Shown here: one piece after another, positions 40,706-63,189 of the stretch
Layout: each line of letters begins with the position of its first letter
Position numbering within the stretch: position 1 is the stretch's first letter
Source of the DNA: Planctomycetota bacterium
GTDB taxonomy: Bacteria > JAJVIF01 > JAPKYR01
DNA: 64,000 nt
Direction: 5' to 3'
Assembly: GCA_030614715.1 (NCBI GenBank)
Contig: JAUWTM010000003.1
Span: 13,763-77,762 of the forward strand
Made by a program: the position numbers and the translations under genes
The notes under the pieces: generated by a model
Seen by the model: only the letters and a program-made list of their open reading frames with translations
What the model was told of the DNA's origin: nothing
Database searches by the model: none

Positions 40706-42052
40706 TTAACCAGCAGTTGTTGACTCACTAGTAGCTTTAACGCCCGCCGAGACAGCCTTGATGTTGATCTCAGCAATTTTCGGGGACTGGAAAGTGCTGA
40801 TCGCCGTTTCGAATGCCTCGATGGGATATAGTTCACTGTCAGCCAGCATTAATGCGATTGCGGCAGTCGACAGTGACAGCTTACCCGCTTCCTTTGCCAG
40901 GTCCTTAAATGGAATTCGCCTTATCTGCGCCTTAGTTTCGGGTAATTCAATATCGTTATCAGCGTACAATATGCAGGTTTCGGGCAGACTCGCGATCTTC
41001 GCCCTCGTCCGCTTCAGGCCGTCCTCTGAGATTAACACGAAATATTCGGGACTTTCAATACCTGTATAGTCAATACGTTCAGGACTAAGAATTATCTCCG
41101 CGACCGAGTGTCCGGTCTGGACGGTAATCGGGTAATCGTCCTTCTGAGCGGCTTTTAGTCCAGCGAATATCCCGCCCTCGGCGAACAGCGTTGCCGCAGA
41201 CTTGATCTTCTGGCCGGCGCTTCCGGCGATTATGATCCCTGTCTGGTGGTCCACCTTGTTATCGAACTTCGGTTCGATCAGGATTCGCGGCTTCAGCACG
41301 CCTTTGCCAGCCTCGTATGCCTGACGATAGTTATCCGAGTACTCAAGTCGGGGTTTGTCGGCTACAAGCCCGGTTTTAAACCCATAGCTTTCCATCAGTT
41401 CGAAGAGTTCCTGCTTCCGAAGCTTGTTGCGCGGCATGTAGTATGCAGTGCAGAGCTCCCAGACATCCACGAACGCGTAACCCGGCTGCTCGATCGCCTG
41501 TGCGATTATGTCCGGCAGGTCCTTGTCAAACGAGGTTGTTCTGTATACCCACGCGCCTCCAGCGGCTGCCGCCGTCCCGCACAAATCCATCGGACCCTCG
41601 GGATTACCCCAGGGAGTCGTCGATGTTATTCCGCCCGATGGTGTGGTCACTGAATGCTGTCCACCGGTCATTCCGTAATTGAAATTGTTGCCGATCAGGA
41701 GTGTGATACCAATATTACGACGTGCCACGTTTAAGAAGTGCGTGCCGCCGATCCCGGCAGCGCCGTCGCCCATGAGTGCGATCACAGTAAGTTCCGGTTT
41801 GGCAAGTTTCAACCCGCAGGCGTATGTAATTGACCGGCCGTGAAGCCCGTGGAATGCGTTCGTCGTGAAATACCTGTCCGACAGGCCGATGCAGCCGATG
41901 TCGGTAACGATCACGACGTTTTTCGGATCGGGCTGAAGCTTAACCAGCGCCTTGTCCAGCGCATGGATGAGAGTGGTGTGCCCACATCCAGCGCAGAACG
42001 GCAGCGGCCCGATTTTATCCGTCATGTATGACTTGTATTCTGTTGCAGTCAC
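40706..42052 (-). CDS. korB: 2-oxoacid:ferredoxin oxidoreductase beta subunit (TPP-binding) fused to gamma-like domain
   Basis: N-terminus FCAGCGHTTLIHAL, GDGAAGIGG TPP motif. The C-terminal ~170 aa IIAGSAGQKIKSAATLFAEGG.. resembles the gamma (catalytic-domain) subunit. Confidence 0.75.
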   Translation of the reverse strand: MTATEYKSYMTDKIGPLPFCAGCGHTTLIHALDKALVKLQPDPKNVVIVTDIGCIGLSDRYFTTNAFHGLHGRSITYACGLKLAKPELTVIALMGDGAAGIGGTHFLNVARRNIGITLLIGNNFNYGMTGGQHSVTTPSGGITSTTPWGNPEGPMDLCGTAAAAGGAWVYRTTSFDKDLPDIIAQAIEQPGYAFVDVWELCTAYYMPRNKLRKQELFELMESYGFKTGLVADKPRLEYSDNYRQAYEAGKGVLKPRILIEPKFDNKVDHQTGIIIAGSAGQKIKSAATLFAEGGIFAGLKAAQKDDYPITVQTGHSVAEIILSPERIDYTGIESPEYFVLISEDGLKRTRAKIASLPETCILYADNDIELPETKAQIRRIPFKDLAKEAGKLSLSTAAIALMLADSELYPIEAFETAISTFQSPKIAEINIKAVSAGVKATSESTTAG

Positions 42053-43182
42053 AGCAGGCCTCCCTCATTGATGATTTCATCGGGAGTGACCAGGGTCGTG
42101 TTCATCTTCAGGACAGGCACGATATCGATACCGGGTGGTGCCAGCCTTTCGATCTCGATCAGGTACTGACCCATGTTCATTTCCGGCACGACGATCTTCT
42201 TAATCCCATTCATCGCAGCCTTGATTACCTTCTCAGGAACCGGCCACAGCGTCTGGAGCACAAGCGATGATATTTTCCTTCCCTGCTCCCGTGCCTTTCG
42301 TATCGCAACTTCCACCGATCTCGACGTAATCCCGTAGCTGATTACCAGCGTGTCGGCACCGTCCTGGTAGTCTGCCTTGTAAAGGGAAAGTTCATCGACA
42401 GCGGAATCGATCTTGGCCGCATAATGATCGAGCATATGCTGTATGACATCCGGCTTCGTAACAAGGTAGGCTGTCTTGTCATGAGTGGAGGTGGTGTATC
42501 TTGCGATGTACTCACCTCCGAACTCGGAGAACGCAGGCACCTCTTCGATCGAATCGAATTGGTGAGGCAGGTATTCATCGAGTCCTGACTTCACCCTCTT
42601 ACGATCTATCCGGGGTGGCAGCTCGATCGATTCAAGGTCCGCGGCTTCCTTGGTCACGCCGGTTTCCTTGCTGCCCATTATAAACACTGGAGTGCGCAGC
42701 CATTCGGAGAAGTTGAAAGCGATGTACGTAAGTTTGTACGCCTCTTCAACAGTCGCCGGGCTGAGTGCGATCACCGGCAGGCCGCCGGACGTGACCCAGC
42801 GGGTGAACTGGATGTCACCCTCCGCGCCCTTGGTCGCCGAGCCTGTCGCAGGGCCCTGCCGCTGGATGTTAACTATAACCAGCGGAGTTTCTCCCATGAT
42901 CGCAAGTCCGATGTTTTCGCTGTACAGGCTGATCCCGGGTCCGCTGGTTGCGGTCAGGACTTTCCGTCCGGCCATCGAGGCACCAAGGCAGAATCCCATC
43001 GAGGCGATTTCGTCCTCGGCCTGGATCACGAGCCCACCAGCTTCAGGCACATGCTCGTTCATGAAATGGAGAATAGAAGATGCGGGGGTAATGGGGTAAC
43101 TGGCATAGAAATCGCAACCAGCGGCGATAGCACCACGTGCGATAGCTTCGTTGCCTTCAATAAATTCGAATCCCATATCCAC
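42049..43182 (-). CDS. korA: 2-oxoacid:ferredoxin oxidoreductase alpha subunit
   Basis: ..GNEAIARGAIAAGCDFYASYPITPAS.., ..TSGPGISL... The stop overlaps the korB-like start (4 nt). Confidence 0.8.
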   Translation of the reverse strand: MDMGFEFIEGNEAIARGAIAAGCDFYASYPITPASSILHFMNEHVPEAGGLVIQAEDEIASMGFCLGASMAGRKVLTATSGPGISLYSENIGLAIMGETPLVIVNIQRQGPATGSATKGAEGDIQFTRWVTSGGLPVIALSPATVEEAYKLTYIAFNFSEWLRTPVFIMGSKETGVTKEAADLESIELPPRIDRKRVKSGLDEYLPHQFDSIEEVPAFSEFGGEYIARYTTSTHDKTAYLVTKPDVIQHMLDHYAAKIDSAVDELSLYKADYQDGADTLVISYGITSRSVEVAIRKAREQGRKISSLVLQTLWPVPEKVIKAAMNGIKKIVVPEMNMGQYLIEIERLAPPGIDIVPVLKMNTTLVTPDEIINEGGLL

Positions 43183-43383: not shown

Positions 43384-43405
43384 TGTGCATGTGATCACAT
43401 TCACA
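43384..43405. promoter_or_regulatory. Two overlapping CRP-type half-site pairs (TGTGC-N6-TCACA and TGTGA-N6-TCACA)
   Basis: TGTGCATGTGATCACATTCACA. The second pair (43390-43405) is a perfect TGTGA-N6-TCACA. It lies about 200-220 bp upstream of the korA-like start. Confidence 0.45.
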
Positions 43406-43716
43406 AGCCTTTATTAATAGGCCTTACAGGCTTAATTTATTTAATTTAAGTTATTTTTTGTGATTTAAAGCTCAAAAAAGTTGATTTTTTTACTAATTTT
43501 TAGCATAAAGTTCGTGCTTTTTTACACTAACCGGGACTGATGCGGGTTACAGAACATGTAAATGTATCGCTGCGATTGCAGCGTAATTGTGTTTTTTTAA
43601 TTGCTCATTTTCCACTTTCTTAACCGGTGATAAAATTCAAGATCAATATTTCTGTCAGATAGACTGTATTGCTTTATATCACCCGAAGCCGCAGTCTCAA
43701 ACGACCCACTGAATCG

Positions 43717-49159: not shown

Positions 49160-49963
49160 TCATTTATTGAATTCACGCAGGATCTCCTCGTTCATTTCAG
49201 TAAACCAGCGGTCGCTTTCCCTGATCACTTTTCTCTTCAATCGACCGTAGCTTTCCAGCAGCCTGCGTCCCCCTTTTGTCAGCCGCGATCCGCCTCCAGC
49301 CTTTCCTCCGGTCTGCCTGTCGATTAATTCGAATCCTAGACGTTCCTCCGCACGTTTGATGTCTCCCCACGCGTGACGGTACGAAATTCCCTCCTCCTTC
49401 GCGGCTTTCGTCAGGCTACCGAGGAGGTCGATACCCTGCAGCAGTCGAGCCAGTCCCTCGCCAAACACAACCTTTCCCTCAACACCGAACCAGATCTTGG
49501 TCCGTATCGATAACTTCTTTTTTAATAGAAACTCCTGCTGGGATTCCATGATGTGCATGATCTTAGTCACGGCTTTAGCCGGCAGCTTCAGTTTTCCAAA
49601 AACAGATTTCCACTTAGGTTTATTGCCGTCCAGACCTACAAGAATATTTGCAGCATTGCGGAATTTAAATGAATCTACACGACGGTCACCGTTGAGCTGG
49701 TCAAGGAATATGGTCACGTCGGCATCGAGTTTTCCAACTAACCGGTTGGACTCGACAATGCAGTGCCTGTGCTTACCCTTGAGTCCGACGATGAACCTAA
49801 GGCCATCCTCGGAGGACGTAAAAAAGTTGGCAGGTCCATCCTTCCTTCGCTTGCCACGCCCGATTTTCACATATACGGCGTCCGGCAGGACCTTTGCAAG
49901 GTCCTGTGACAGGGTTGTTTTACCAAGCCCTGAACTTGAGCCGGATATGAGCCATATTTTCAT
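49160..49963 (-). CDS. MobB-like P-loop domain fused to ModE-type winged-helix DNA-binding domain (no Mop/TOBE domain)
   Basis: N-terminus MKIWLISGSSSGLGKTTL (Walker A). The C-terminus GISYRHAWGDIKRAEERLGFELIDRQTGGKAGGGSRLTKGGRRLL matches the E. coli ModE N-terminal block (GISYKSAWDAIN...TGGKGGGGA.LT). The start overlaps the upstream stop (TAATG). Confidence 0.75.
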   Translation of the reverse strand: MKIWLISGSSSGLGKTTLSQDLAKVLPDAVYVKIGRGKRRKDGPANFFTSSEDGLRFIVGLKGKHRHCIVESNRLVGKLDADVTIFLDQLNGDRRVDSFKFRNAANILVGLDGNKPKWKSVFGKLKLPAKAVTKIMHIMESQQEFLLKKKLSIRTKIWFGVEGKVVFGEGLARLLQGIDLLGSLTKAAKEEGISYRHAWGDIKRAEERLGFELIDRQTGGKAGGGSRLTKGGRRLLESYGRLKRKVIRESDRWFTEMNEEILREFNK

Positions 49964-50274
49964 TACGGGAAGCACCCCAGCTGGCACTCATTAATCCTGA
50001 TGTCAAGGTGATTCATGAGTTCACCCATGACGCGACGCTCAATTTTCATCTTCGACGCGGCTGCGAAAGCGTAAGGGCATGTAACACGTCCCCCCGCATG
50101 CAATACGCCTGTTTCACAGATTTCTTTATCTTCCGGCCAGTCAATGACCACACCTGCACCGTCGGCAGATGTCGCCCATTCAACCGTAATTCCCGCGTCA
50201 CCGAAAAATTTCTCCAGGTTCTCCTTCGCCGAATCCGACGGATTATCCAGGTAGATCTTTGTCGTCTCACTCAT
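49963..50274 (-). CDS. Small conserved-Cys hypothetical protein (103 aa)
   Basis: Translationally coupled on both sides: ATGA with fdhD, TAATG with the MobB::ModE gene. Four Cys: EIC, TCPY, NECQLGC. Confidence 0.5.
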   Translation of the reverse strand: MSETTKIYLDNPSDSAKENLEKFFGDAGITVEWATSADGAGVVIDWPEDKEICETGVLHAGGRVTCPYAFAAASKMKIERRVMGELMNHLDIRINECQLGCFP

Positions 50275-57001: not shown

Positions 57002-57886
57002 CTACCGGTTGGCCACATTGAACAACCGGTGCGTGTTTACTTCATAGTCGTTTATCAAATCGATCGACGTGGGTCCGGTAATCCAGTTCACCAGCTCCAT
57101 CGCCTCGTCGTGTAACAGATCCGGATGCAATTCCGGATTCAGGGGTATTATCGAGTAGATATTTTCCAGGGCCGGATCACCGAGCAGCAGCAGGACGAGG
57201 TCAAGGTGATTCACCATCGAGTAATATGTGCCGGAGTCGGTCAGCGTATATGCTTCCATCTGGTCTGCAATAGTCAGCACTGCACCCATACCCTGCCCGG
57301 ATTCAATGTACCAGTCACCCTCGGGGGTCTCTCCCACGAGTTCCCAGATACTCAGCTCTTTCTTGTGCGTCCCTGAATTATCACCGCGGGAAATGAACTG
57401 TAAATCGCCACTGAGAAACAGAGAAAATGCCTCTTCGGCGGTGCGAACATTTCTGATCCCGAGAGGATCACTCCCCGGACCCACGATTACGAACTCGTTC
57501 TGAGCAACGTAATGTCGCGCTAAACCGAAGCCTTCATCGATGAACTCCTGTTCTGCTTCTGGAGCATGGACCAGTACAATATCGACGTCGCCTTTCCGGC
57601 CCATTTCAAGGGCTGCACCAGTGCCGACAGCGATTACATCGACCTCTATGCCCGTTTCGGCTGTAAACACGGGTAGGAGGTGGTTCAGAAGACCGGAGTT
57701 GTCTACACTGGTCGTAGTCGCGAGCTTGATTACAACATTCTGCTGAGTTTCACCAGATGTATCGTCCGGTTCCTCACCGGGAACGTCCCGTGCCGGTGTA
57801 CACGAGAAAATGCAAATCACGATCACGGAAAAAATTGTCACCAGAATCTGCCGGTGCGCCGATTTAAAATTCCCCTGGAATTCCAT
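57002..57886 (-). CDS. tupA: Tungstate-binding periplasmic lipoprotein TupA
   Basis: Signal peptide with lipobox ..ICIFSC. KLATTTSVDNSGLL, VGTGAALEMGRKGDVDIVLVHAPE and RGDNSGTHKKE match TupA-type binding proteins. Confidence 0.8.
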   Translation of the reverse strand: MEFQGNFKSAHRQILVTIFSVIVICIFSCTPARDVPGEEPDDTSGETQQNVVIKLATTTSVDNSGLLNHLLPVFTAETGIEVDVIAVGTGAALEMGRKGDVDIVLVHAPEAEQEFIDEGFGLARHYVAQNEFVIVGPGSDPLGIRNVRTAEEAFSLFLSGDLQFISRGDNSGTHKKELSIWELVGETPEGDWYIESGQGMGAVLTIADQMEAYTLTDSGTYYSMVNHLDLVLLLLGDPALENIYSIIPLNPELHPDLLHDEAMELVNWITGPTSIDLINDYEVNTHRLFNVANR

Positions 57887-58059
57887 GTATGATTACCCCT
57901 TAATTAATCGACAACCCCATGAAGTGAAAAGCAACCGCCGTTATGCTACATGTAACATAACGTCGTGTCAAGTCCTTGCGGATCAACACCAGTTTGCTCC
58001 GGTCTATTCCAGCAATTTAACTGCTGGAAGTTAATAAAAATTGCAATTTTTTCCTATTT

Positions 58060-58117
58060 TGTGAAAATTTTCACTAATATTGTGATTTTTTTCACTAATA
58101 TTGTGATTTTTTTCACT
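58060..58117. promoter_or_regulatory. Three phased CRP/FNR-family-like sites TGTGA-N6-TCACT, 21-bp spacing, in the tupA / Cys-rich-gene divergent region
   Basis: Site 1 58060-58075 (core GTGAAAATTTTCAC is a perfect 14-bp palindrome), site 2 58081-58096, site 3 58102-58117. A candidate extended -10, TGgTAAAAT, lies at 58125-58133. Confidence 0.6.
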
Positions 58118-58120
58118 AAT
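58071..58120. repeat. 21-bp tandem direct repeat, 2.4 copies (TCACTAATATTGTGATTTTTT)
   Basis: Identical copies at 58071-58091 and 58092-58112, plus a partial third copy at 58113-58120. Confidence 0.9.
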
Positions 58121-58194
58121 TACATGGTAAAATTGTAATAGATGATTATTGTCCTTCTGAATTCAAATTCATCAAAGCCAAAAGGGGGCTAGAC

Positions 58195-58542
58195 ATGACT
58201 ATCACTCATCATGAAGTTCAAAAGGAAAAAGTACAGAATCAGCCATCAGGTGAGGAAACTCGATCGATAGCGACCCAGCGTAACCTGTGCCTTTCCTGCA
58301 CTGCAACAAAGGGGTGTACCAACCGACGGACAGGTTACCCGGTACACTACTGCGACAGCTACAAAAATCCCCAGCTCCACGACTACGCACCCTATTTCCC
58401 TCCTGACGCCAATACCGGCGAACAAATGTCAGGCGAAGCACTCGGCCTTTGCGCAAATTGCGTATACCGTCCTACCTGCACTTTCGCCATTTCCGAAATG
58501 GGAATATGGCACTGCTCAATGCACGAATGTATGTGGCCCTGA
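58195..58542 (+). CDS. Small Cys-rich protein with an internally duplicated LCxxCx5C...HxC module
   Basis: 115 aa. Module 1 is L31-C32-x2-C35-x5-C41..H51-x-C53. Module 2 is L85-C86-x2-C89-x5-C95..H106-C107. GGGGG RBS-like run upstream. Confidence 0.55.
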   Translation: MTITHHEVQKEKVQNQPSGEETRSIATQRNLCLSCTATKGCTNRRTGYPVHYCDSYKNPQLHDYAPYFPPDANTGEQMSGEALGLCANCVYRPTCTFAISEMGIWHCSMHECMWP

Positions 58543-58828
58543 TACCGGCGAAGAGATTTTAATTAACAAGGTTGATTTCATACCTGACCATGCGTAAGCC
58601 TGTCAGTGGCATGATCCTACCGCCAATTAGAGCAGCTTCCTGAAAGAAGGTCGTTGTTGTCAATCGGAATTATCCGGCAACGAACTTAAAAAAGCAGTCA
58701 GCCTGAATAGACAGCGTTGGTTTGTTAGTGCTATATTGTTAGAAGTAAAGCGGAATATGCACACTGTCCGCGGAATATTCTGATGTCCGGTTATCGGCAA
58801 ACACACCGGATCGGAACCTGGAGGAATC

Positions 58829-59032
58829 ATGTTCGGCATACGTGGTTGGGAATGGATTATTCTGCTGGTAATAATTCTCCTGATCTTTGGACCGTCCAAG
58901 ATACCTGACCTCGCTCGGTCTGTAGGCAAAGCGATAACTGAGTTCAAGAAAGGTATCAAGGGCGCCAAGGAAGAACTGGGTGACATCCCCAAGGAGATTG
59001 CAGACGCGGAGGAGGAGGTCAAGAGTAGCTAG
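58829..59032 (+). CDS. tatA: Twin-arginine translocase subunit TatA/E
   Basis: MFGIRGWEWIILLVIILLIFGPSKIPDLARSVGKAITEFKKG. GGAGG RBS. Confidence 0.9.
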   Translation: MFGIRGWEWIILLVIILLIFGPSKIPDLARSVGKAITEFKKGIKGAKEELGDIPKEIADAEEEVKSS

Positions 59033-59033
59033 G

Positions 59034-59819
59034 ATGGCTGGGTCAAACGGGCAAGTTTCTCCGCCTGAAGACAGTATTGCACCGGCGGAAGACACCGTGA
59101 AGATCAGCCCGATCTACGAACACCTGAACGAACTTCGTTTACGCTTCATTTACTCGACAATCTATCTCATCGCCGGCTGTATTGTCGGTTTTTTTGTTAC
59201 CGAAAAATGGGTTTTCGCGTGGATCCTCTCACCGATAGTGGCGATACCCGAAGCCCAGCTGCAGGTGCTGGGCCCGGCTGAGAAACTGACCTCATTAATC
59301 AAGACGTCCTTCATCGTGGGACTGTTCGTCGCATTGCCGTTTATCGTTCACCAGTTTTGGCTTTTCCTGAGACCCGGCCTTAAAAACAATGAAAGGCGTT
59401 ATTTACTCCTGATGATCCCTGCATCGGCAATTCTGTTCACCATCGGTGCGGCATTTATTTTTTTTATCATGCTTCCTGTCGCTCTTCCGTTCCTGATCGG
59501 CTTAGACCTTGGAGTTGATATCGAAACGAATATTACGCTGGAACTTTACTTTACATTCGTGCTGCTCCTGATTCTCGCCGGTGGATTAGTTTTCCAGATA
59601 CCGCTGATTACTTACTTCCTCGCAAAACTTGGAATTGTCAACGCCGGAATGCTTGCATCGAACCGTAAGTTCGCAGTCCTGGGTACCGTCTTCCTTGCCG
59701 CTATGCTGACACCGACTGGTGATCCCCTCAATCTCATGCTCCTTGCACTTCCCATTTACATACTTTTTGAAATCAGCATTTTTATAGCTGCCGGGACTTA
59801 CAAGCCGCGAAAAGATTAA
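59034..59819 (+). CDS. tatC: Twin-arginine translocase subunit TatC
   Basis: ..HLNELRLRFIYSTIYLIAG.. and six hydrophobic segments. Start at ATG 59034, directly after the tatA stop. Confidence 0.85.
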   Translation: MAGSNGQVSPPEDSIAPAEDTVKISPIYEHLNELRLRFIYSTIYLIAGCIVGFFVTEKWVFAWILSPIVAIPEAQLQVLGPAEKLTSLIKTSFIVGLFVALPFIVHQFWLFLRPGLKNNERRYLLLMIPASAILFTIGAAFIFFIMLPVALPFLIGLDLGVDIETNITLELYFTFVLLLILAGGLVFQIPLITYFLAKLGIVNAGMLASNRKFAVLGTVFLAAMLTPTGDPLNLMLLALPIYILFEISIFIAAGTYKPRKD

Positions 59820-59835
59820 TGTGAATTATTTCACC
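59820..59835. promoter_or_regulatory. CRP/FNR-family-like site TGTGA-ATTATT-TCACC upstream of the formate dehydrogenase genes
   Basis: Same half-site/spacing architecture as the 58.06-58.12 kb triplet. It starts 1 nt after the tatC stop, about 250 nt upstream of the FDH start. Confidence 0.4.
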
Positions 59836-60081
59836 CGCCTGTCCAATCCCCATTATTAACGAGAAATTATCGATATTAAAACTATTTTTCAACCAAGCGT
59901 TATGTTCAATTTTTCACAACGGATTGCCAACATTGTACTTTCTTTCACATAAATCAAGGTGGTATACTCCGGCCAGTTAAATCACTCTCATCTGTATTAA
60001 CTTCTCATCCTCGGGAAGTATCAGGTTTTAAATCACAGTCTGGTTACCTGTAGGACCATGACTGAATTAAGGGTGACCTCG

Positions 60082-63000
60082 ATGAAACTCTCACGGCGTG
60101 ATCTTTTAAAACTGATCGGTTTGACCGCAGCCGGCACTGCTGTTGGCACTCAGCCGGCGCATGCAGCCGATCATCCAAGCCCGCATGACCCACCACCAAT
60201 GAAGACCGAAGGGGCAACAAAAACCTACTCGGTCTGTCCATACTGTGCCGTCGGTTGCGGGATTGATGTCTACGTGAAAGACGGTGTTGTAATTGGTGCC
60301 GAGGGCAATCCGGACCATCCCATCAACCAGGGGGCCTTGTGCCCCAAGGGACAAGCCCTGGCCAGCATCGCCGCACACAGGAATCCACGACGTCTTGATA
60401 AAGTAAGGTATCGTCCGGCGGGCGGAACCGATTGGCAGGACATTTCGATGGATGAAGCTCTCGACAGGATCGCAGGGCTTATAAAGGAAACCCGCGACCG
60501 GACTTTCGTCCAGCGCGACTCCAACGGTGTGACAGTAAACCACACCGAAGCCATCGCGTCCCTCGGTGGAGCATCCTTGGACAACGAAGAATGTTACACA
60601 ATTCATAAATTCGTAAGGGCTCTAGGTATAAATTACTTCGAGCACCAGGCAAGGATATGCCACTCCTCGACCGTCGGGGCACTTGGGTCGAGTTTCGGTC
60701 GAGGCGCGATGACCAACCACTGGACCGACATGGGTAACAGCGACTGCTTCTTCATCATCGGATCGAACGCAGCACAGAACCATCCGATGGCATTCAAGTG
60801 GATCACACATGCCCAGGAAACCCGTGGCGCAAAGCTTCTCGTGGCTGATCCCCGGTTCACCACGTCGGCCGGCAGTGCGGACCTGTTCGTACGTTTCCGA
60901 CCCGGAACCGACATCGCCATCATCGGCGGCATGATCAACTACGTGCTCGGGAATAACCTTCAGCACACCGATTACGTTAAGCTGATGTCCGACGGTCCGT
61001 TCCTGGTCAAGGAAGATTTCGAGTTTGATCCGAACACGGGAATTTTCTCCGGCTACGACGAAAGCAACAGGAAATACGCAACCGGAAGCTGGGACTACCA
61101 GCGCGGCGAGGACGGAAAAGCGCTTCGCGATCCCACAATGCGCGACCCGAACTGCGTTTACCAGCACCTGAAGCGGCATTACTCACGTTATACTCCTGAG
61201 AAGGTATCCGAAATCTCCGGAATCCCGGTTGATACTTTTGTTCAGCTTGCAAGCATGTATGCCGAGCACGGTGGTACCAGTACAAAGAACGGGTCCATCC
61301 TGTATGCAATGGGTTCGACCCAGCACACTGTCGGGGTCGCATACATCAGATCATACGTAATCCTGCAGCTGCTCCTCGGCAACATGGGAGTCGCCGGCGG
61401 CGGAATCAACGCACTTCGCGGCGAGAGCAACGTGCAGGGTTCCACCGATATGGCGATGCTGTTCCATATCATCCCGGGATACATGGCATGCCCGGTCGCA
61501 GCCAGCCATCCAAATCTCCAGGCATACATAGAGAAAGAAACACCGCAGTACGGTTACTGGGCGAATAAACCAAAGTTCCTTGTCAGCCTCCTGAAAGCGT
61601 TCTGGGGTGAGTATGCAACACCCGAACGCGACTTCTGCTTCGACTTCCTGCCTAAACGATCACCCGGCACCGAGGGTCACGGTCATTCGTGGATCGCATT
61701 GTTTGAAGCGATGCACGCTGGAACCATTGAAGGCCTTCTGGTCTGGGGTCAGAATCCGATGGTGGGCGGTCCGAACACCAACTTTACCGGCGAGGCACTC
61801 GATAACCTGAAATGGATGGTAGCCGCCGACCTCTGGGAGACCGAGACATCGATCTTCTGGAAGCGTCCGGGTGCTAATCCGGCTGACATCCAGACGGAAG
61901 TTTTCCTCATTCCTGCAGCTTCATCATTTGAGAAAGAGGGAAGCATCACTAACTCCGGTCGATGGATCCAGTGGCGATACGCGGCTGTTCCACCTCCGGG
62001 TGAAGCGAAGGCCGATCTCTGGGTCCTGGATCAGTATGTCCGACGCCTGCAAGCCCTTTACAACGCGGAAGGCGGACCGGTTAAGGAAGCGATCACAAAG
62101 CTCAACTGGGACTACACTCCGGAAGGTGAGCATGAGCCGTCAGCCCACAGGGTTGCGATGGAGATCAACGGCTACTACACAGAGACGTCACCACGACACG
62201 GCGACCAAGTTGAGAATTTCACCAAGCTTACCGCGGACGGGACCACTGCATCGGGCAACTGGATCATGTCGGGCTTCTACCCGGATCCGGAAACCAACCA
62301 TGCCGAAAGGCACGACAACAGCGACCCGTCCGGACTTCTCATATTCCCCAACTGGACCTACGCATGGCCGGTTAACCGTCATGTCATATACAACAGGTGT
62401 GCTGCCGACGAGAGAGGTCAGCCGTGGGATCCCGCAAGGCCGCTCGTAAGCTTCAACCCAGCCTTCGCGGACGCCGATCCTGCCGAGAGAGCAAGCTGGC
62501 AGACGGAGTGGACGTTTAACGACGTGCCCGATTTCTCCAAGACCGCACATCCGAGGGCGTCCATCGCAGCTCCGTTCATCATGCCCAATGACCAGCACGG
62601 CTACATGTTCGTACCGAAGGGCAAGACGAAGGGCGGTCCGTTCCCCGAGCATTACGAACCGTTCGAAACACCGCTTGCCATTAATCCAGTGCATCCGGGA
62701 GCTAACAGGATGATCGATAACCCGGTCATCGTGCTCTGGCAGGATGCGATGGACACGCGTGCGGAAACCGGAAGCGCAGAATTCCCGATTGTAGGAACTA
62801 CACATAGGCAAATCGAGCACTGGCTGTCCGGTGCGATGACCAGGAACCTCGAACCCCTATGCGAACTGGCCCCCGAGATGCATGTCGAGATGAGCCCCGA
62901 ACTCGCTGAAGCTAAGGGCATCAAGGCCGGTGACTGGGTGCGTGTCGTATCGGGACGCGGCAATGTACTGGCCCGCGCAAACGTGACCAGGCGAATGGAA

Positions 63001-63189
63001 GCGTTAATGCTAGGCGGGGTCAAGACTGAGATCGTTGCATTGCCGTGGCACTGGGGCTACGCAGGCCTCAGGTGGGGTGGAGACGAGAACCTGAACTACT
63101 CCGCCAACCTGCTTACGGCAAACGTCGGTGACTGCAACACGATGATACCTGAATACAAGGTTTTCCTGTGCGATATTCAAAAGACTTAG
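60082..63189 (+). CDS. fdnG: Formate dehydrogenase catalytic (alpha) subunit, FdnG-like, Tat-exported, cysteine-type
   Basis: Tat leader MKLSRRDLLKLIGLTAAGTAVGTQPAHA. FS0 CPYCAVGCG. The active-site block HQARICHSSTVGALGSSFGRGAMTNHW has Cys (TGC 60658-60660) where Sec enzymes have TGA. I prefer the start at 60082 (AAGGGTGA RBS); 60058 is possible. Confidence 0.85.
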   Translation: MKLSRRDLLKLIGLTAAGTAVGTQPAHAADHPSPHDPPPMKTEGATKTYSVCPYCAVGCGIDVYVKDGVVIGAEGNPDHPINQGALCPKGQALASIAAHRNPRRLDKVRYRPAGGTDWQDISMDEALDRIAGLIKETRDRTFVQRDSNGVTVNHTEAIASLGGASLDNEECYTIHKFVRALGINYFEHQARICHSSTVGALGSSFGRGAMTNHWTDMGNSDCFFIIGSNAAQNHPMAFKWITHAQETRGAKLLVADPRFTTSAGSADLFVRFRPGTDIAIIGGMINYVLGNNLQHTDYVKLMSDGPFLVKEDFEFDPNTGIFSGYDESNRKYATGSWDYQRGEDGKALRDPTMRDPNCVYQHLKRHYSRYTPEKVSEISGIPVDTFVQLASMYAEHGGTSTKNGSILYAMGSTQHTVGVAYIRSYVILQLLLGNMGVAGGGINALRGESNVQGSTDMAMLFHIIPGYMACPVAASHPNLQAYIEKETPQYGYWANKPKFLVSLLKAFWGEYATPERDFCFDFLPKRSPGTEGHGHSWIALFEAMHAGTIEGLLVWGQNPMVGGPNTNFTGEALDNLKWMVAADLWETETSIFWKRPGANPADIQTEVFLIPAASSFEKEGSITNSGRWIQWRYAAVPPPGEAKADLWVLDQYVRRLQALYNAEGGPVKEAITKLNWDYTPEGEHEPSAHRVAMEINGYYTETSPRHGDQVENFTKLTADGTTASGNWIMSGFYPDPETNHAERHDNSDPSGLLIFPNWTYAWPVNRHVIYNRCAADERGQPWDPARPLVSFNPAFADADPAERASWQTEWTFNDVPDFSKTAHPRASIAAPFIMPNDQHGYMFVPKGKTKGGPFPEHYEPFETPLAINPVHPGANRMIDNPVIVLWQDAMDTRAETGSAEFPIVGTTHRQIEHWLSGAMTRNLEPLCELAPEMHVEMSPELAEAKGIKAGDWVRVVSGRGNVLARANVTRRMEALMLGGVKTEIVALPWHWGYAGLRWGGDENLNYSANLLTANVGDCNTMIPEYKVFLCDIQKT

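What the first reader, a model, noticed from the sequence alone, without database searches (positions are those of the whole stretch)
58060..58120. Three helically phased TGTGA-N6-TCACT sites generated by a 21-bp tandem duplication in a divergent promoter region
Seen: TGTGAaaatttTCACT (58060-58075; the inner 14 bp GTGAAAATTTTCAC form a perfect palindrome), TGTGAttttttTCACT (58081-58096) and TGTGAttttttTCACT (58102-58117). Site centres are exactly 21 bp apart, two helical turns. Sites 2 and 3 arise from an exact 21-bp tandem repeat. A TGgTAAAAT extended -10 candidate follows at 58125-58133. The region lies between tupA (start 57886, minus strand) and the Cys-rich gene (58195, plus strand).
Known: TGTGA-N6-TCACA is the CRP consensus, and related CRP/FNR-family regulators use the same architecture.
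Inference: a CRP/FNR-family dimer binds cooperatively on one face of the DNA. It would control the tungsten/cofactor operon in one direction and the Cys-rich/tat/fdh genes in the other.
Basis: partly seen in the sequence, partly recalled or inferred. Interest (0 to 1): 0.6.

Follow-up and report, generated by a model that had tools for sequence, protein, structure and literature searches.

The report
Triplicated Rex redox-repressor operator
The three evenly spaced palindromes are real, but they are most likely binding sites for Rex, the well-known NADH-sensing repressor, not for a CRP/FNR protein. One ancestral site was copied three times on the promoter of a small Cys-rich gene that heads the Tat/formate-dehydrogenase cluster, so this is a tidy but ordinary case of redox control.

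Summary
**Observation:** confirmed in every detail. There are three TGTGA-N6-TCACT sites at 58060, 58081 and 58102, spaced 21 bp apart. The period-21 identity is exact over 58068-58120. A TGgTAAAAT extended -10 follows.

**Interpretation:** partly supported.
- Extended to 18 bp, the sites read TTGTGAA-N4-TTCACAA, the canonical Rex operator, with 1, 2 and 2 mismatches.
- The genome encodes one clear Rex protein with all DNA-contact residues conserved.
- It encodes no cNMP-domain (CRP/FNR) protein, and most genomes of its family have none either.
- The Rex consensus is 10-25 times over-represented in this genome's intergenic DNA. It sits before classic Rex targets: PFOR, 2-oxoacid:ferredoxin oxidoreductase, thiolase, EtfB, acyl-CoA dehydrogenase, malic enzyme, fumarate reductase, MvhD and H+-PPase.
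- Homologues of the Cys-rich gene in 9 of 12 related loci carry a single such box. The triplication is unique to this genome.
- Box 3 lies 9 bp upstream of the -10 hexamer. The same layout occurs at other Rex-box promoters here, which fits repression by occlusion.

**tupA side:** probably not controlled by these sites.
- tupA has its own conserved palindrome, CGTTATG-N10-CATAACG, on its sigma-70 promoter.
- That palindrome recurs upstream of fdhA, and a ModE-type regulator is encoded in the cluster.

**Verdict:** a new member of a known kind, of modest interest.

The parts
58059..58076 (.). Rex box 1, TTGTGAAAATTTTCACTA. It has 1 mismatch to TTGTGAA-N4-TTCACAA and is the strongest copy.
   Evidence: It ranks 3rd genome-wide (23.7 bits) with a matrix trained on 22 other intergenic sites.
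58080..58097 (.). Rex box 2, TTGTGATTTTTTTCACTA, with 2 mismatches (half-site position 7 on the left, position 2 on the right).
   Evidence: Rank 14-15, 19.5 bits. GTGAT half-sites also occur in the boxes before etfB, korA, the H+-PPase gene and the fumarate-reductase cytochrome b gene.
58101..58118 (.). Rex box 3, identical to box 2. It ends 9 bp before the -10 hexamer and so covers the -35/spacer zone.
58047..58120 (.). 21-bp tandem array (an 18-bp operator plus a 3-bp linker). Period-21 identity is exact over 58068-58120. A decayed fourth copy, ATTGCAATTTTTTCCTAT, lies at 58040-58057.
   Evidence: TRF, the repeat finder D1/D2, and direct reading.
58125..58133 (+). Predicted extended -10 (TGgTAAAAT) of the Cys-rich gene promoter. 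The predicted start of transcription is near 58140.
   Evidence: Sequence. The same 'box, then 4-9 bp, then -10' layout is seen at mvhD (TGGTATAAA), acs (GGTAAAAT) and the malic enzyme gene (TGATATTCT). No mapped transcription start is available.
58195..58542 (+). 115-aa Cys-rich protein gene, the first gene downstream of the array. It matches no Pfam or NCBIfam family.
   Evidence: Homologues in relatives are preceded by a single Rex-like box.
58829..59819 (+). tatA (58829-59032) and tatC (58980-59819).
   Evidence: Pfam TatA_B_E and TatC. No terminator is predicted between the Cys-rich gene and tatA, or between tatC and fdhA.
59819..59836 (.). Weak Rex-like box ATGTGAATTATTTCACCC. The core GTGAA-N4-TTCAC is intact but the flanks have 3 mismatches. 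It starts at the last base of the tatC stop codon.
   Evidence: It scores 13.0 bits, rank 56. It is not conserved in L026.
59898..59921 (.). ModE-type palindrome CGTTATGTTCAATTTTTCACAACG, 38 bp upstream of the TGgTATACT extended -10 (59960-59968) of fdhA. It is not a Rex box, although it resembles one.
   Evidence: It is one of only two intergenic matches in the genome to CGTTATG-N10-CATAACG at up to 2 mismatches, and one of only two with at most 1. A perfect copy lies at the same position before the 83%-identical fdhA of L026.
60058..63189 (+). fdhA: a Tat-exported FdnG-type formate dehydrogenase alpha subunit, of the Cys type.
   Evidence: TIGR01553 scores 1112 bits against a cut-off of 814. 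The twin-arginine leader and HQARICHSSTV are visible.
57939..57962 (.). ModE-type palindrome CGTTATGCTACATGTAACATAACG, overlapping the -10 of the tupA promoter.
   Evidence: the repeat finder I2 and a perfect match. It is conserved upstream of tupA in 6 relatives.
57943..57971 (-). Predicted tupA sigma-70 promoter, TTGACA-17-TAGCAT (10 of 12 matches).
   Evidence: The TTGACA followed by the palindrome is shared by relatives.
57002..57886 (-). tupA-like tungstate-binding protein gene. It is the first gene of the cluster tupABC-moeA-moaA-moaC/MOSC-mog-mobA-fdhD.
49160..49987 (-). Regulator with a ModE-type DNA-binding domain in its C-terminal part. It is the candidate binder of the CGTTATG-N10-CATAACG palindromes.
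   Evidence: TIGR00637 scores 79 bits, below its cut-off of 98.5. Pfam HTH_1 matches residues 186-240.
43389..43406 (.). A further Rex box in the window, ATGTGATCACATTCACAA, upstream of the 2-oxoacid:ferredoxin oxidoreductase alpha gene (42049-43182, -).

Best explanation
**What it is.** The three sites are operators of Rex, the NADH/NAD+-sensing repressor. An 18-bp Rex box plus a 3-bp linker was amplified by slipped-strand duplication into three abutting copies. Boxes 2 and 3 are identical, so the last duplication is recent.

**How it works (inferred).**
- When the NADH/NAD+ ratio is low, Rex dimers occupy the boxes.
- Box 3 covers the -35/spacer region just upstream of the extended -10 (TGgTAAAAT). 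Boxes 1 and 2 cover the adjoining upstream DNA. RNA polymerase is therefore excluded from the promoter of the Cys-rich gene.
- With no terminator predicted downstream, tatA-tatC and probably fdhAB are also repressed by loss of read-through.
- When NADH accumulates, Rex closes and leaves the DNA, and the cluster is expressed. This supplies a periplasmic formate dehydrogenase that can act as an electron outlet or inlet.

**The tungstate/cofactor operon.** tupA is most likely governed separately. A ModE-type regulator would bind CGTTATG-N10-CATAACG on the tupA promoter, and the same palindrome lies upstream of fdhA.

**Shown:** the motif identity, the presence of rex, the absence of CRP/FNR, the regulon enrichment, and conservation of a single box with the gene.

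**Inferred:** the promoter position, the repression, read-through, and any cooperativity between boxes.
For: 1. **Motif.** The boxes match TTGTGAA-N4-TTCACAA with 1, 2 and 2 mismatches. This is the published Rex consensus (PMC2883068; PMC6391272, citing Ravcheev 2012).
2. **Regulator.** There is one rex gene, at G000:C22, 224 aa. It scores 262.6 bits on NF003995 (cut-off 126) and passes two equivalog cut-offs. It gives E = 1e-52 to T. maritima Rex. All listed DNA-contact residues are conserved (R12, S33, K43, Q46, R48, K49, G58, R60, G61, Y64), as are GxGxxG and the NAD-binding Asp (with PMC8836258).
3. **Regulon enrichment.** In 438 kb of intergenic DNA there are 6 one-mismatch sites against 0.23 simulated, and 18 two-mismatch sites against 2.0 simulated, maximum 5. 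All 6 one-mismatch sites and 18 of 25 two-mismatch sites are intergenic.
4. **Targets.** The sites lie before the genes for fumarate reductase cytochrome b, thiolase, Acs, acyl-CoA dehydrogenase, ADP-forming acetyl-CoA synthetase, PFOR, KorA, EtfB, malic enzyme, MvhD and H+-PPase, and before gatC..rex itself.
5. **Rank.** With a matrix trained without the array, the boxes rank 3rd, 14th and 15th in the genome.
6. **Conservation.** Nine of 12 loci with a Cys-rich homologue, across the family, order and class, have a Rex-like box about 100-300 bp upstream. Those before the NuoE/F-type operons (L002, L003, L005) share the asymmetric TC[ATG]CT right arm.
7. **Rex in relatives.** Rex is present in 13 of 15 related genomes.
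8. **Promoter layout.** The layout 'box, then 4-9 bp, then -10' recurs at mvhD, acs and the malic enzyme gene.
9. **Precedents.** Rex-like motifs lie before a periplasmic fdh cluster in Calderihabitans (PMC7306483). Rex binds before a tungsten enzyme in C. bescii (PMC6391272). S. aureus ldh1 has two Rex sites (PMC2883068).
Against: - There is no binding, expression or transcription-start data.
- Boxes 2 and 3 each carry two mismatches and may bind weakly.
- The triplication occurs in no other genome of the phylum held here. Its adaptive value is therefore unproven, and it could be a young neutral slippage product.
- Direct Rex control of fdhA in this genome rests only on read-through and on a weak box at 59819. 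The stronger look-alike at 59902 turned out to be a ModE-type palindrome.
- The genome is 87% complete, so a missing regulator cannot be fully excluded.
Confidence: 0.8

Rival explanations
1. A CRP/FNR-family dimer binds the three sites and activates or represses both divergent operons.
For: TGTGA-N6-TCAC is also the CRP-type core. If transcription started about 10 bp further downstream than predicted, the centres would fall at -41.5, -62.5 and -83.5.
Against: - The genome has no cNMP_binding domain and no Crp HTH (PF00325) match, and nothing above the HTH_Crp_2 cut-off. The weak hits checked by Pfam are ArsR-, DUF134- or XRE-type.
- Six of 8 same-family genomes lack the domain, including a 99%-complete one.
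- The conserved flanks (TTGTGAA...TTCACAA) and the target genes fit Rex.
Confidence: 0.04
2. Only one box works as a Rex operator: either box 1, the ancestral and strongest copy, or box 3, the one on the promoter. The other copies would be a recent, selectively neutral slippage product with little regulatory effect.
For: Boxes 2 and 3 are identical, so the duplication is young. No other genome of the phylum has a 21-bp phased pair. Relatives have a single box. Position-7 mismatches lower affinity in S. aureus (PMC2883068).
Against: Boxes 2 and 3 still rank 14-15 genome-wide. GTGAT half-sites occur in several other likely functional boxes. Box 3 holds the position that single boxes hold at other promoters.
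Confidence: 0.25
3. The array acts mainly through DNA structure. Phased A/T tracts every 21 bp would give a curved, UP-element-like region that stimulates the promoter, with no dedicated protein involved.
For: A4T4 and T7 tracts recur in phase directly upstream of an extended -10 promoter that lacks a -35 element.
Against: This does not explain the conserved GTGA/TCAC arms. It also does not explain the genome-wide enrichment of the full palindrome before redox genes or its conservation with the Cys-rich gene.
Confidence: 0.04
4. An unidentified non-Rex, non-CRP regulator with the same specificity binds the sites.
For: The genome is incomplete, and many of its helix-turn-helix proteins are uncharacterised.
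Against: A Rex protein with fully conserved recognition residues is present, and the regulon content is the textbook Rex one.
Confidence: 0.05

Closest known systems
Rex operators (ROP boxes) of the Rex regulon: S. coelicolor, B. subtilis, S. aureus, Thermotogales, Clostridia (Ravcheev et al. 2012 as cited in PMC6391272; PMC2883068)
   Same: The same 18-bp palindrome TTGTGAA-N4-TTCACAA. A Rex protein with the same DNA-contact residues. The same kinds of target genes (PFOR, thiolase, Etf, dehydrogenases, hydrogenase-related genes). Boxes overlap promoters.
   Different: The host is an uncultured bacterium of a small phylum with 14 species genomes held, where I found no description of the regulon. 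Here one box has been triplicated as an exact 21-bp tandem repeat.
Multi-site Rex promoters: S. aureus ldh1 with two sites (PMC2883068); B. subtilis cydABCD with three YdiH/Rex sites (Schau et al. 2004, recalled from memory, paper not held)
   Same: More than one Rex dimer sits on one control region.
   Different: In those cases the sites are separate sequences at irregular spacing. Here the copies abut at 21 bp and arose by recent tandem duplication.
Rex control of tungsten or formate enzymes: C. bescii XOR and tungstate transporter (PMC6391272); Calderihabitans periplasmic fdh (PMC7306483)
   Same: A Rex box lies next to genes for a W/Mo pterin enzyme and its metal uptake and cofactor genes. 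Binding at the C. bescii transporter was weak, which parallels the doubt about tupA here.
   Different: The enzymes and gene orders differ. Here the Rex boxes head a Cys-rich gene plus tatAC, not the enzyme gene itself.
CRP/FNR sites (TGTGA-N6-TCACA)
   Same: The same core and spacing of the two arms, with a dimeric regulator on one DNA face.
   Different: No CRP/FNR protein is encoded. The conserved flanking TT/AA and the regulon content point to Rex. The predicted position fits a repressor, not a class I or class II activator.

Membership tests
Rex operator / Rex regulon | An 18-bp inverted repeat TTGTGAA-N4-TTCACAA with conserved G-T-G in each arm | tested here: met
   The boxes have 1, 2 and 2 mismatches out of 14 specified positions. 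The GTG/CAC cores are intact in all three.
Rex operator / Rex regulon | A rex gene in the same genome with conserved DNA-recognition and NAD(H)-binding residues | tested here: met
   There is one gene on C22. NF003995 scores 262.6 bits against a cut-off of 126. The alignment to PDB 5zz5/7wb3 conserves R48, K49, R60, G61 and the other contact residues (PMC8836258).
Rex operator / Rex regulon | The motif is over-represented in intergenic DNA and lies before redox and energy-metabolism genes | tested here: met
   Six one-mismatch sites against 0.23 simulated, and 18 two-mismatch sites against 2.0 simulated. The targets are annotated.
Rex operator / Rex regulon | The site is conserved at orthologous or homologous loci | tested here: met
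   Nine of 12 loci with a Cys-rich homologue carry a box upstream. The triplication itself is not conserved.
Rex operator / Rex regulon | The operator overlaps or abuts the promoter | tested here: inconclusive
   Box 3 ends 9 bp before a predicted extended -10, and the same layout occurs at other boxes.
Rex operator / Rex regulon | Rex binds the DNA and NADH releases it | not testable with these tools
   This needs EMSA or footprinting with and without NADH and NAD+.
CRP/FNR binding site | A CRP/FNR-family protein (cNMP-binding barrel plus Crp-type HTH) encoded in the genome | tested here: not met
   PF00027 and PF00325 give no match, and PF13545 gives none above its cut-off. The domain is also absent from 6 of 8 genomes of the same family. 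Caveat: the genome is 87% complete.
CRP/FNR binding site | A TGTGA-N6-TCACA palindrome | tested here: met
   The form is TGTGA-N6-TCACT. This feature is shared with Rex boxes and does not discriminate between the two families.
ModE-type operator (side finding at the tupA and fdhA promoters) | A conserved palindrome on the promoter of the Mo/W transporter, plus a ModE-type regulator in the genome | tested here: inconclusive
   The palindrome is conserved in 6 relatives and is restricted in this genome to tupA and fdhA, and it is found in L026. The regulator domain scores 79 bits, below the TIGR00637 cut-off of 98.5. Binding is untested.

The most novel reading that the evidence does not exclude
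The 21-bp unit may be an evolvable operator-copy-number dial. Slippage would add or remove whole Rex boxes that abut on one DNA face. Three Rex dimers would then form a contiguous, cooperative coat from about -83 to -23. This would give an ultrasensitive NADH switch for the Cys-rich/Tat/formate-dehydrogenase cluster. It might also block a second, upstream minus-strand promoter (TTCAGA-18-TACAAT, 58161-58132) that reads through the array towards tupA. Copy number could differ between strains of the population.
Probability: 0.12. Interest if true: 0.5.

Novelty: new member of a known kind. Interest (0 to 1): 0.3.

Why it matters
- The finding corrects a plausible misassignment. TGTGA-N6-TCAC is shared by CRP/FNR and Rex sites, and here the gene content of the genome decides between them.
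- It extends the Rex regulon to a small, uncultured phylum.
- It shows a 300-bp divergent control region split between two sensors. A redox sensor (Rex) serves the Tat/formate-dehydrogenase side. A metal sensor (ModE-type) serves the tungstate-uptake side and also fdhA.
- The exact triplication is a clean natural example of operator birth by slippage. It could be used to test whether abutting Rex dimers cooperate.
- None of this changes current understanding of Rex.

Tried and rejected
- **CRP/FNR regulator.** Rejected: no such gene in this genome or in most relatives.
- **Known RNA element** (for example a Moco riboswitch) in the intergenic region. Rejected: nothing significant in Rfam.
- **Sigma-54 promoter**, as found before the homologous Cys-rich genes in relatives. 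By eye, no GG-N10-GC element with correct spacing follows the array in this window. A sigma-70 extended -10 fits instead.
- **57-aa ORF at 57965-58138 spanning the repeats**. Considered spurious: no Shine-Dalgarno sequence, it starts inside the tupA promoter, and the repeats are absent from relatives. It was not tested by homology search.
- **Rex control of tupA.** Six orthologues in relatives have no Rex-like box at their promoters; the nearest, in two of them, lie about 320-450 bp upstream. Twenty-eight distant metagenomic tupA loci have no box at all.
- **The 59902 'weak Rex box'.** Reassigned to the ModE-type palindrome.
- **Closer strains, to test repeat copy number.** The metagenome scan with the Cys-rich protein found nothing. 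The scan with TupA found only relatives at 53% identity or less.
- **Ravcheev 2012 and Schau 2004** are not held in the library.

Full report
**Observation**

- The three sites are TGTGAAAATTTTCACT at 58060, and TGTGATTTTTTTCACT at 58081 and at 58102.
- Their centres are 21 bp apart.
- TRF calls a 21-bp array at 58047-58120. Period-21 identity is exact over 58068-58120.
- The pattern occurs 3 times in the window against 0.1 expected, and 0 of 100 shuffles reach that number. The whole 4.29-Mb genome holds 11 such sites.
- TGGTAAAAT follows at 58125-58133.

The gene context is also confirmed.
- On the minus strand lie a TupA-like gene, tupB, tupC, moeA, moaA, moaC-MOSC, mog, mobA and fdhD, followed by a regulator with a ModE-type helix-turn-helix domain.
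- On the plus strand lie a 115-aa Cys-rich ORF, tatA, tatC, a Tat-exported Cys-type FdnG-like fdhA, and fdhB.

The phasing is a consequence of the repeat unit length. It is not an independent signal.

**Which regulator binds the sites**

The window belongs to an 87%-complete MAG with 254 contigs and 51.7% G+C.

CRP/FNR is not supported.
- A six-frame search finds no cNMP_binding domain and no Crp HTH, and nothing above the HTH_Crp_2 cut-off. The controls ring as expected.
- The weak HTH_Crp_2 hits checked by Pfam are ArsR-, DUF134- and XRE-type proteins.
- Six of eight genomes of the same family also lack the domain, one of them 99% complete. The two that have it carry it in frames of about 160 and 545 aa, not of CRP size.

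Rex fits.
- Extended by two bases on each side, the sites read TTGTGAAAATTTTCACTA and TTGTGATTTTTTTCACTA (twice). That is 1, 2 and 2 mismatches to TTGTGAA-N4-TTCACAA.
- This is the published Rex operator: S. aureus TTGTGAAW4TTCACAA (PMC2883068), and the general consensus quoted in PMC6391272.
- The genome has exactly one Rex gene, on C22, 224 aa. It passes three NCBIfam Rex cut-offs.
- It aligns with T. maritima and T. thermophilus Rex at E = 1e-52 to 1e-49.
- Every residue listed as contacting DNA in the T. maritima ternary complex is identical after a +3 offset: R12, S33, K43, Q46, R48, K49, G58, R60, G61 and Y64 (PMC8836258). The GxGxxG loop and the NAD-binding Asp are also present.
- Rex is present as a single copy in 13 of 15 related genomes.

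**Is there a Rex regulon in this genome**

- All six one-mismatch matches to the consensus are intergenic, as are 18 of 25 two-mismatch matches.
- In 438 kb of intergenic DNA, second-order Markov simulations give 0.23 one-mismatch and 2.0 two-mismatch sites (maximum 5). The observed numbers are 6 and 18.
- The genes downstream are the classical Rex set:
  - fumarate reductase cytochrome b, thiolase, acetyl-CoA synthetase divergent from an acyl-CoA dehydrogenase, and ADP-forming acetyl-CoA synthetase;
  - PFOR, a 2-oxoacid:ferredoxin oxidoreductase (in this window, box at 43389) and EtfB;
  - malic enzyme, MvhD, H+-pyrophosphatase and an AlaDH/PNT-like protein.
- A weaker box lies before gatC, in the gene string that ends with gatB and rex. 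This suggests autoregulation.
- With a matrix trained on 22 sites outside the array, box 1 ranks 3rd in the genome (23.7 bits). Boxes 2 and 3 rank 14th-15th (19.5 bits).
- The position-7 A-to-T change of boxes 2 and 3 also occurs in the boxes before etfB, korA, the H+-PPase gene and the fumarate reductase gene. Position 7 is a tolerated, affinity-lowering position in S. aureus (PMC2883068).

**Comparative evidence**

- Homologues of the Cys-rich protein exist in 10 of the 40 relatives searched, and as a second copy in this genome.
- Nine of 12 such loci have a Rex-like box (at most 3 mismatches) about 100-300 bp upstream of the gene.
- Several of the boxes share the asymmetric right arm TC[ATG]CT seen here.
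- In those relatives the box lies about 33 bp upstream of a sigma-54 promoter (TGGCAC-N5-TTGS) and downstream of an NtrC-type activator gene. The operon continues with NuoE/NuoF-like genes or a glutamate dehydrogenase gene.
- So a single Rex box travels with this gene family. In the window the sigma-54 context is replaced by a sigma-70 extended -10, and the box is triplicated.
- No other genome of the class or phylum (14 species genomes held) contains two GTGA-N6-TCAC cores at 21-bp spacing. The triplication is therefore lineage-specific and, given the identity of boxes 2 and 3, recent.

**Position and mechanism**

- Box 3 ends 9 bp before the -10 hexamer TAAAAT.
- The same arrangement, a box followed after 4-9 bp by a -10 element, occurs at mvhD (TGGTATAAA), acs (GGTAAAAT) and the malic enzyme gene (TGATATTCT).
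- This supports both the promoter call and repression by occlusion of the -35/spacer zone.
- With a start near 58140, the box centres fall near -31.5, -52.5 and -73.5.
- No terminator is predicted between the Cys-rich gene and tatA, or between tatC and fdhA. Read-through into tatAC and fdhAB is therefore plausible.
- Internal promoter candidates exist at TAGACA-18-TATATT (58708-58737) and TGgTATACT (59960-59968).
- Whether the three dimers cooperate is not known.

**The tupA side**

- The best sigma-70 match in the region is TTGACA-17-TAGCAT at 57971-57943 on the minus strand.
- It is overlapped by a 24-bp palindrome, CGTTATGCTACATGTAACATAACG, at 57939-57962.
- All six tupA orthologues in relatives (52-66% identity) have CGTTATG-N10-CATAAC/T-type palindromes after a TTGACA. 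None has a Rex box at its promoter.
- Twenty-eight more distant metagenomic tupA loci have neither element.
- In this genome the palindrome matches only one other intergenic place at up to 2 mismatches: 59898-59921, 38 bp upstream of the fdhA extended -10.
- The 83%-identical fdhA of MAG locus L026 has a perfect copy at the same place.
I reassign it.
- A ModE-type DNA-binding domain is encoded at the end of the cofactor cluster.
- The simplest reading is classical ModE logic: the transporter promoter is repressed, and the enzyme gene is controlled from an upstream site. Rex adds the redox input on the other promoter.
- The Rex array is about 100-150 bp upstream of the tupA start of transcription, where a repressor is not expected to act.
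- A weak minus-strand promoter match at 58161-58132 (9 of 12) would read through the array, so an effect on tupA cannot be excluded.

**Direct Rex input at fdhA**

- In this genome only a weak box remains at 59819-59836. Its core is intact, its flanks are poor, and it ranks 56th.
- The 80%-identical fdhA of L027 has two good boxes at -413 and -127. The second lies just upstream of a TATAGT -10.
- Rex control of this enzyme is therefore seen in near relatives, but here it probably runs mainly through the upstream promoter.

**Comparison with what is known, and verdict**

- This is a Rex operator set. It meets the sequence, regulator, regulon and conservation criteria. Binding and NADH response cannot be tested here.
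- Multiple Rex sites on one promoter are known: S. aureus ldh1 (PMC2883068), and B. subtilis cydA, which I recall from memory only.
- Rex boxes before a periplasmic fdh cluster have been predicted in Calderihabitans, and Rex binding before a tungsten enzyme has been shown in C. bescii (PMC7306483, PMC6391272).
- Earlier notes of this scan report tandem Rex boxes in other phyla. I treat these as leads only.
- What is particular here is the exact 21-bp triplication, the small uncultured phylum, and the division of the control region between Rex and a ModE-type regulator.
- I rate it a new member of a known kind, with interest about 0.3.

Noticed in passing
window 57939-57962 and 59898-59921; L026 812-835; L034-L039 upstream of tupA: A 24-bp palindrome, CGTTATG-N10-CATAACG, sits on the tupA promoter and about 38 bp upstream of the fdhA -10. 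These are the only two intergenic matches in the genome at up to 2 mismatches. It is conserved before tupA in six relatives and before the closest fdhA orthologue. It is probably the operator of the ModE-type regulator at 49160-49987.
   Followed up: partly
window 58195-58542; L002-L013; G000:C190:15134-15370: In relatives the Cys-rich gene family sits between an NtrC-type sigma-54 activator gene and NuoE/NuoF-like or glutamate dehydrogenase genes. A Rex box lies about 33 bp upstream of a sigma-54 promoter. The family matches no Pfam or NCBIfam model. It looks like a conserved first gene of Rex-controlled, NADH-linked operons.
   Followed up: partly
window 58007-58029: A near-perfect 23-bp palindrome, TTCCAGCAATT-t-AACTGCTGGAA, lies between the tupA promoter and the Rex array. 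I did not see it in the relatives' tupA upstream regions. Its function is unknown.
   Followed up: no
window 58037-58050 and 58129-58139: A perfect 14-bp palindrome, AAAATTGCAATTTT, lies just left of the array. A similar AAAATTGTAAT lies just right of it, overlapping the -10. The left one is part of a decayed fourth repeat copy.
   Followed up: no
G000:C22, about 11.9-16.9 kb (L025): rex lies directly downstream of gatB on the same strand. A Rex-like box, TCGTGAATATTTTCACTT, lies before gatC, 34 bp upstream of a perfect TGATATAAT. This suggests autoregulation through a gatC..gatB-rex transcript, which is an unusual linkage.
   Followed up: partly
window 43389-43406 and 43458-43475; G000:C186:5280 and 5347: The kor and etfB promoters each carry two Rex-like boxes 67-69 bp apart. 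At etfB the second box overlaps the -10.
   Followed up: no
window 49160-49987 (-): The ModE-type helix-turn-helix domain lies in the C-terminal part of a 275-aa frame whose N-terminal 170 aa match no Pfam family.
   Followed up: no
whole genome G000 and relatives: The phylum is represented by only 14 species genomes in the held set, all in one class. Most members of the family lack any cNMP-binding protein, while nearly all have one Rex.
   Followed up: partly
window 57965-58138 (+): A 57-aa ORF runs in frame through the repeats (…FTNIVIFFTNIVIFFTNYMVKL). It is probably spurious.
   Followed up: no
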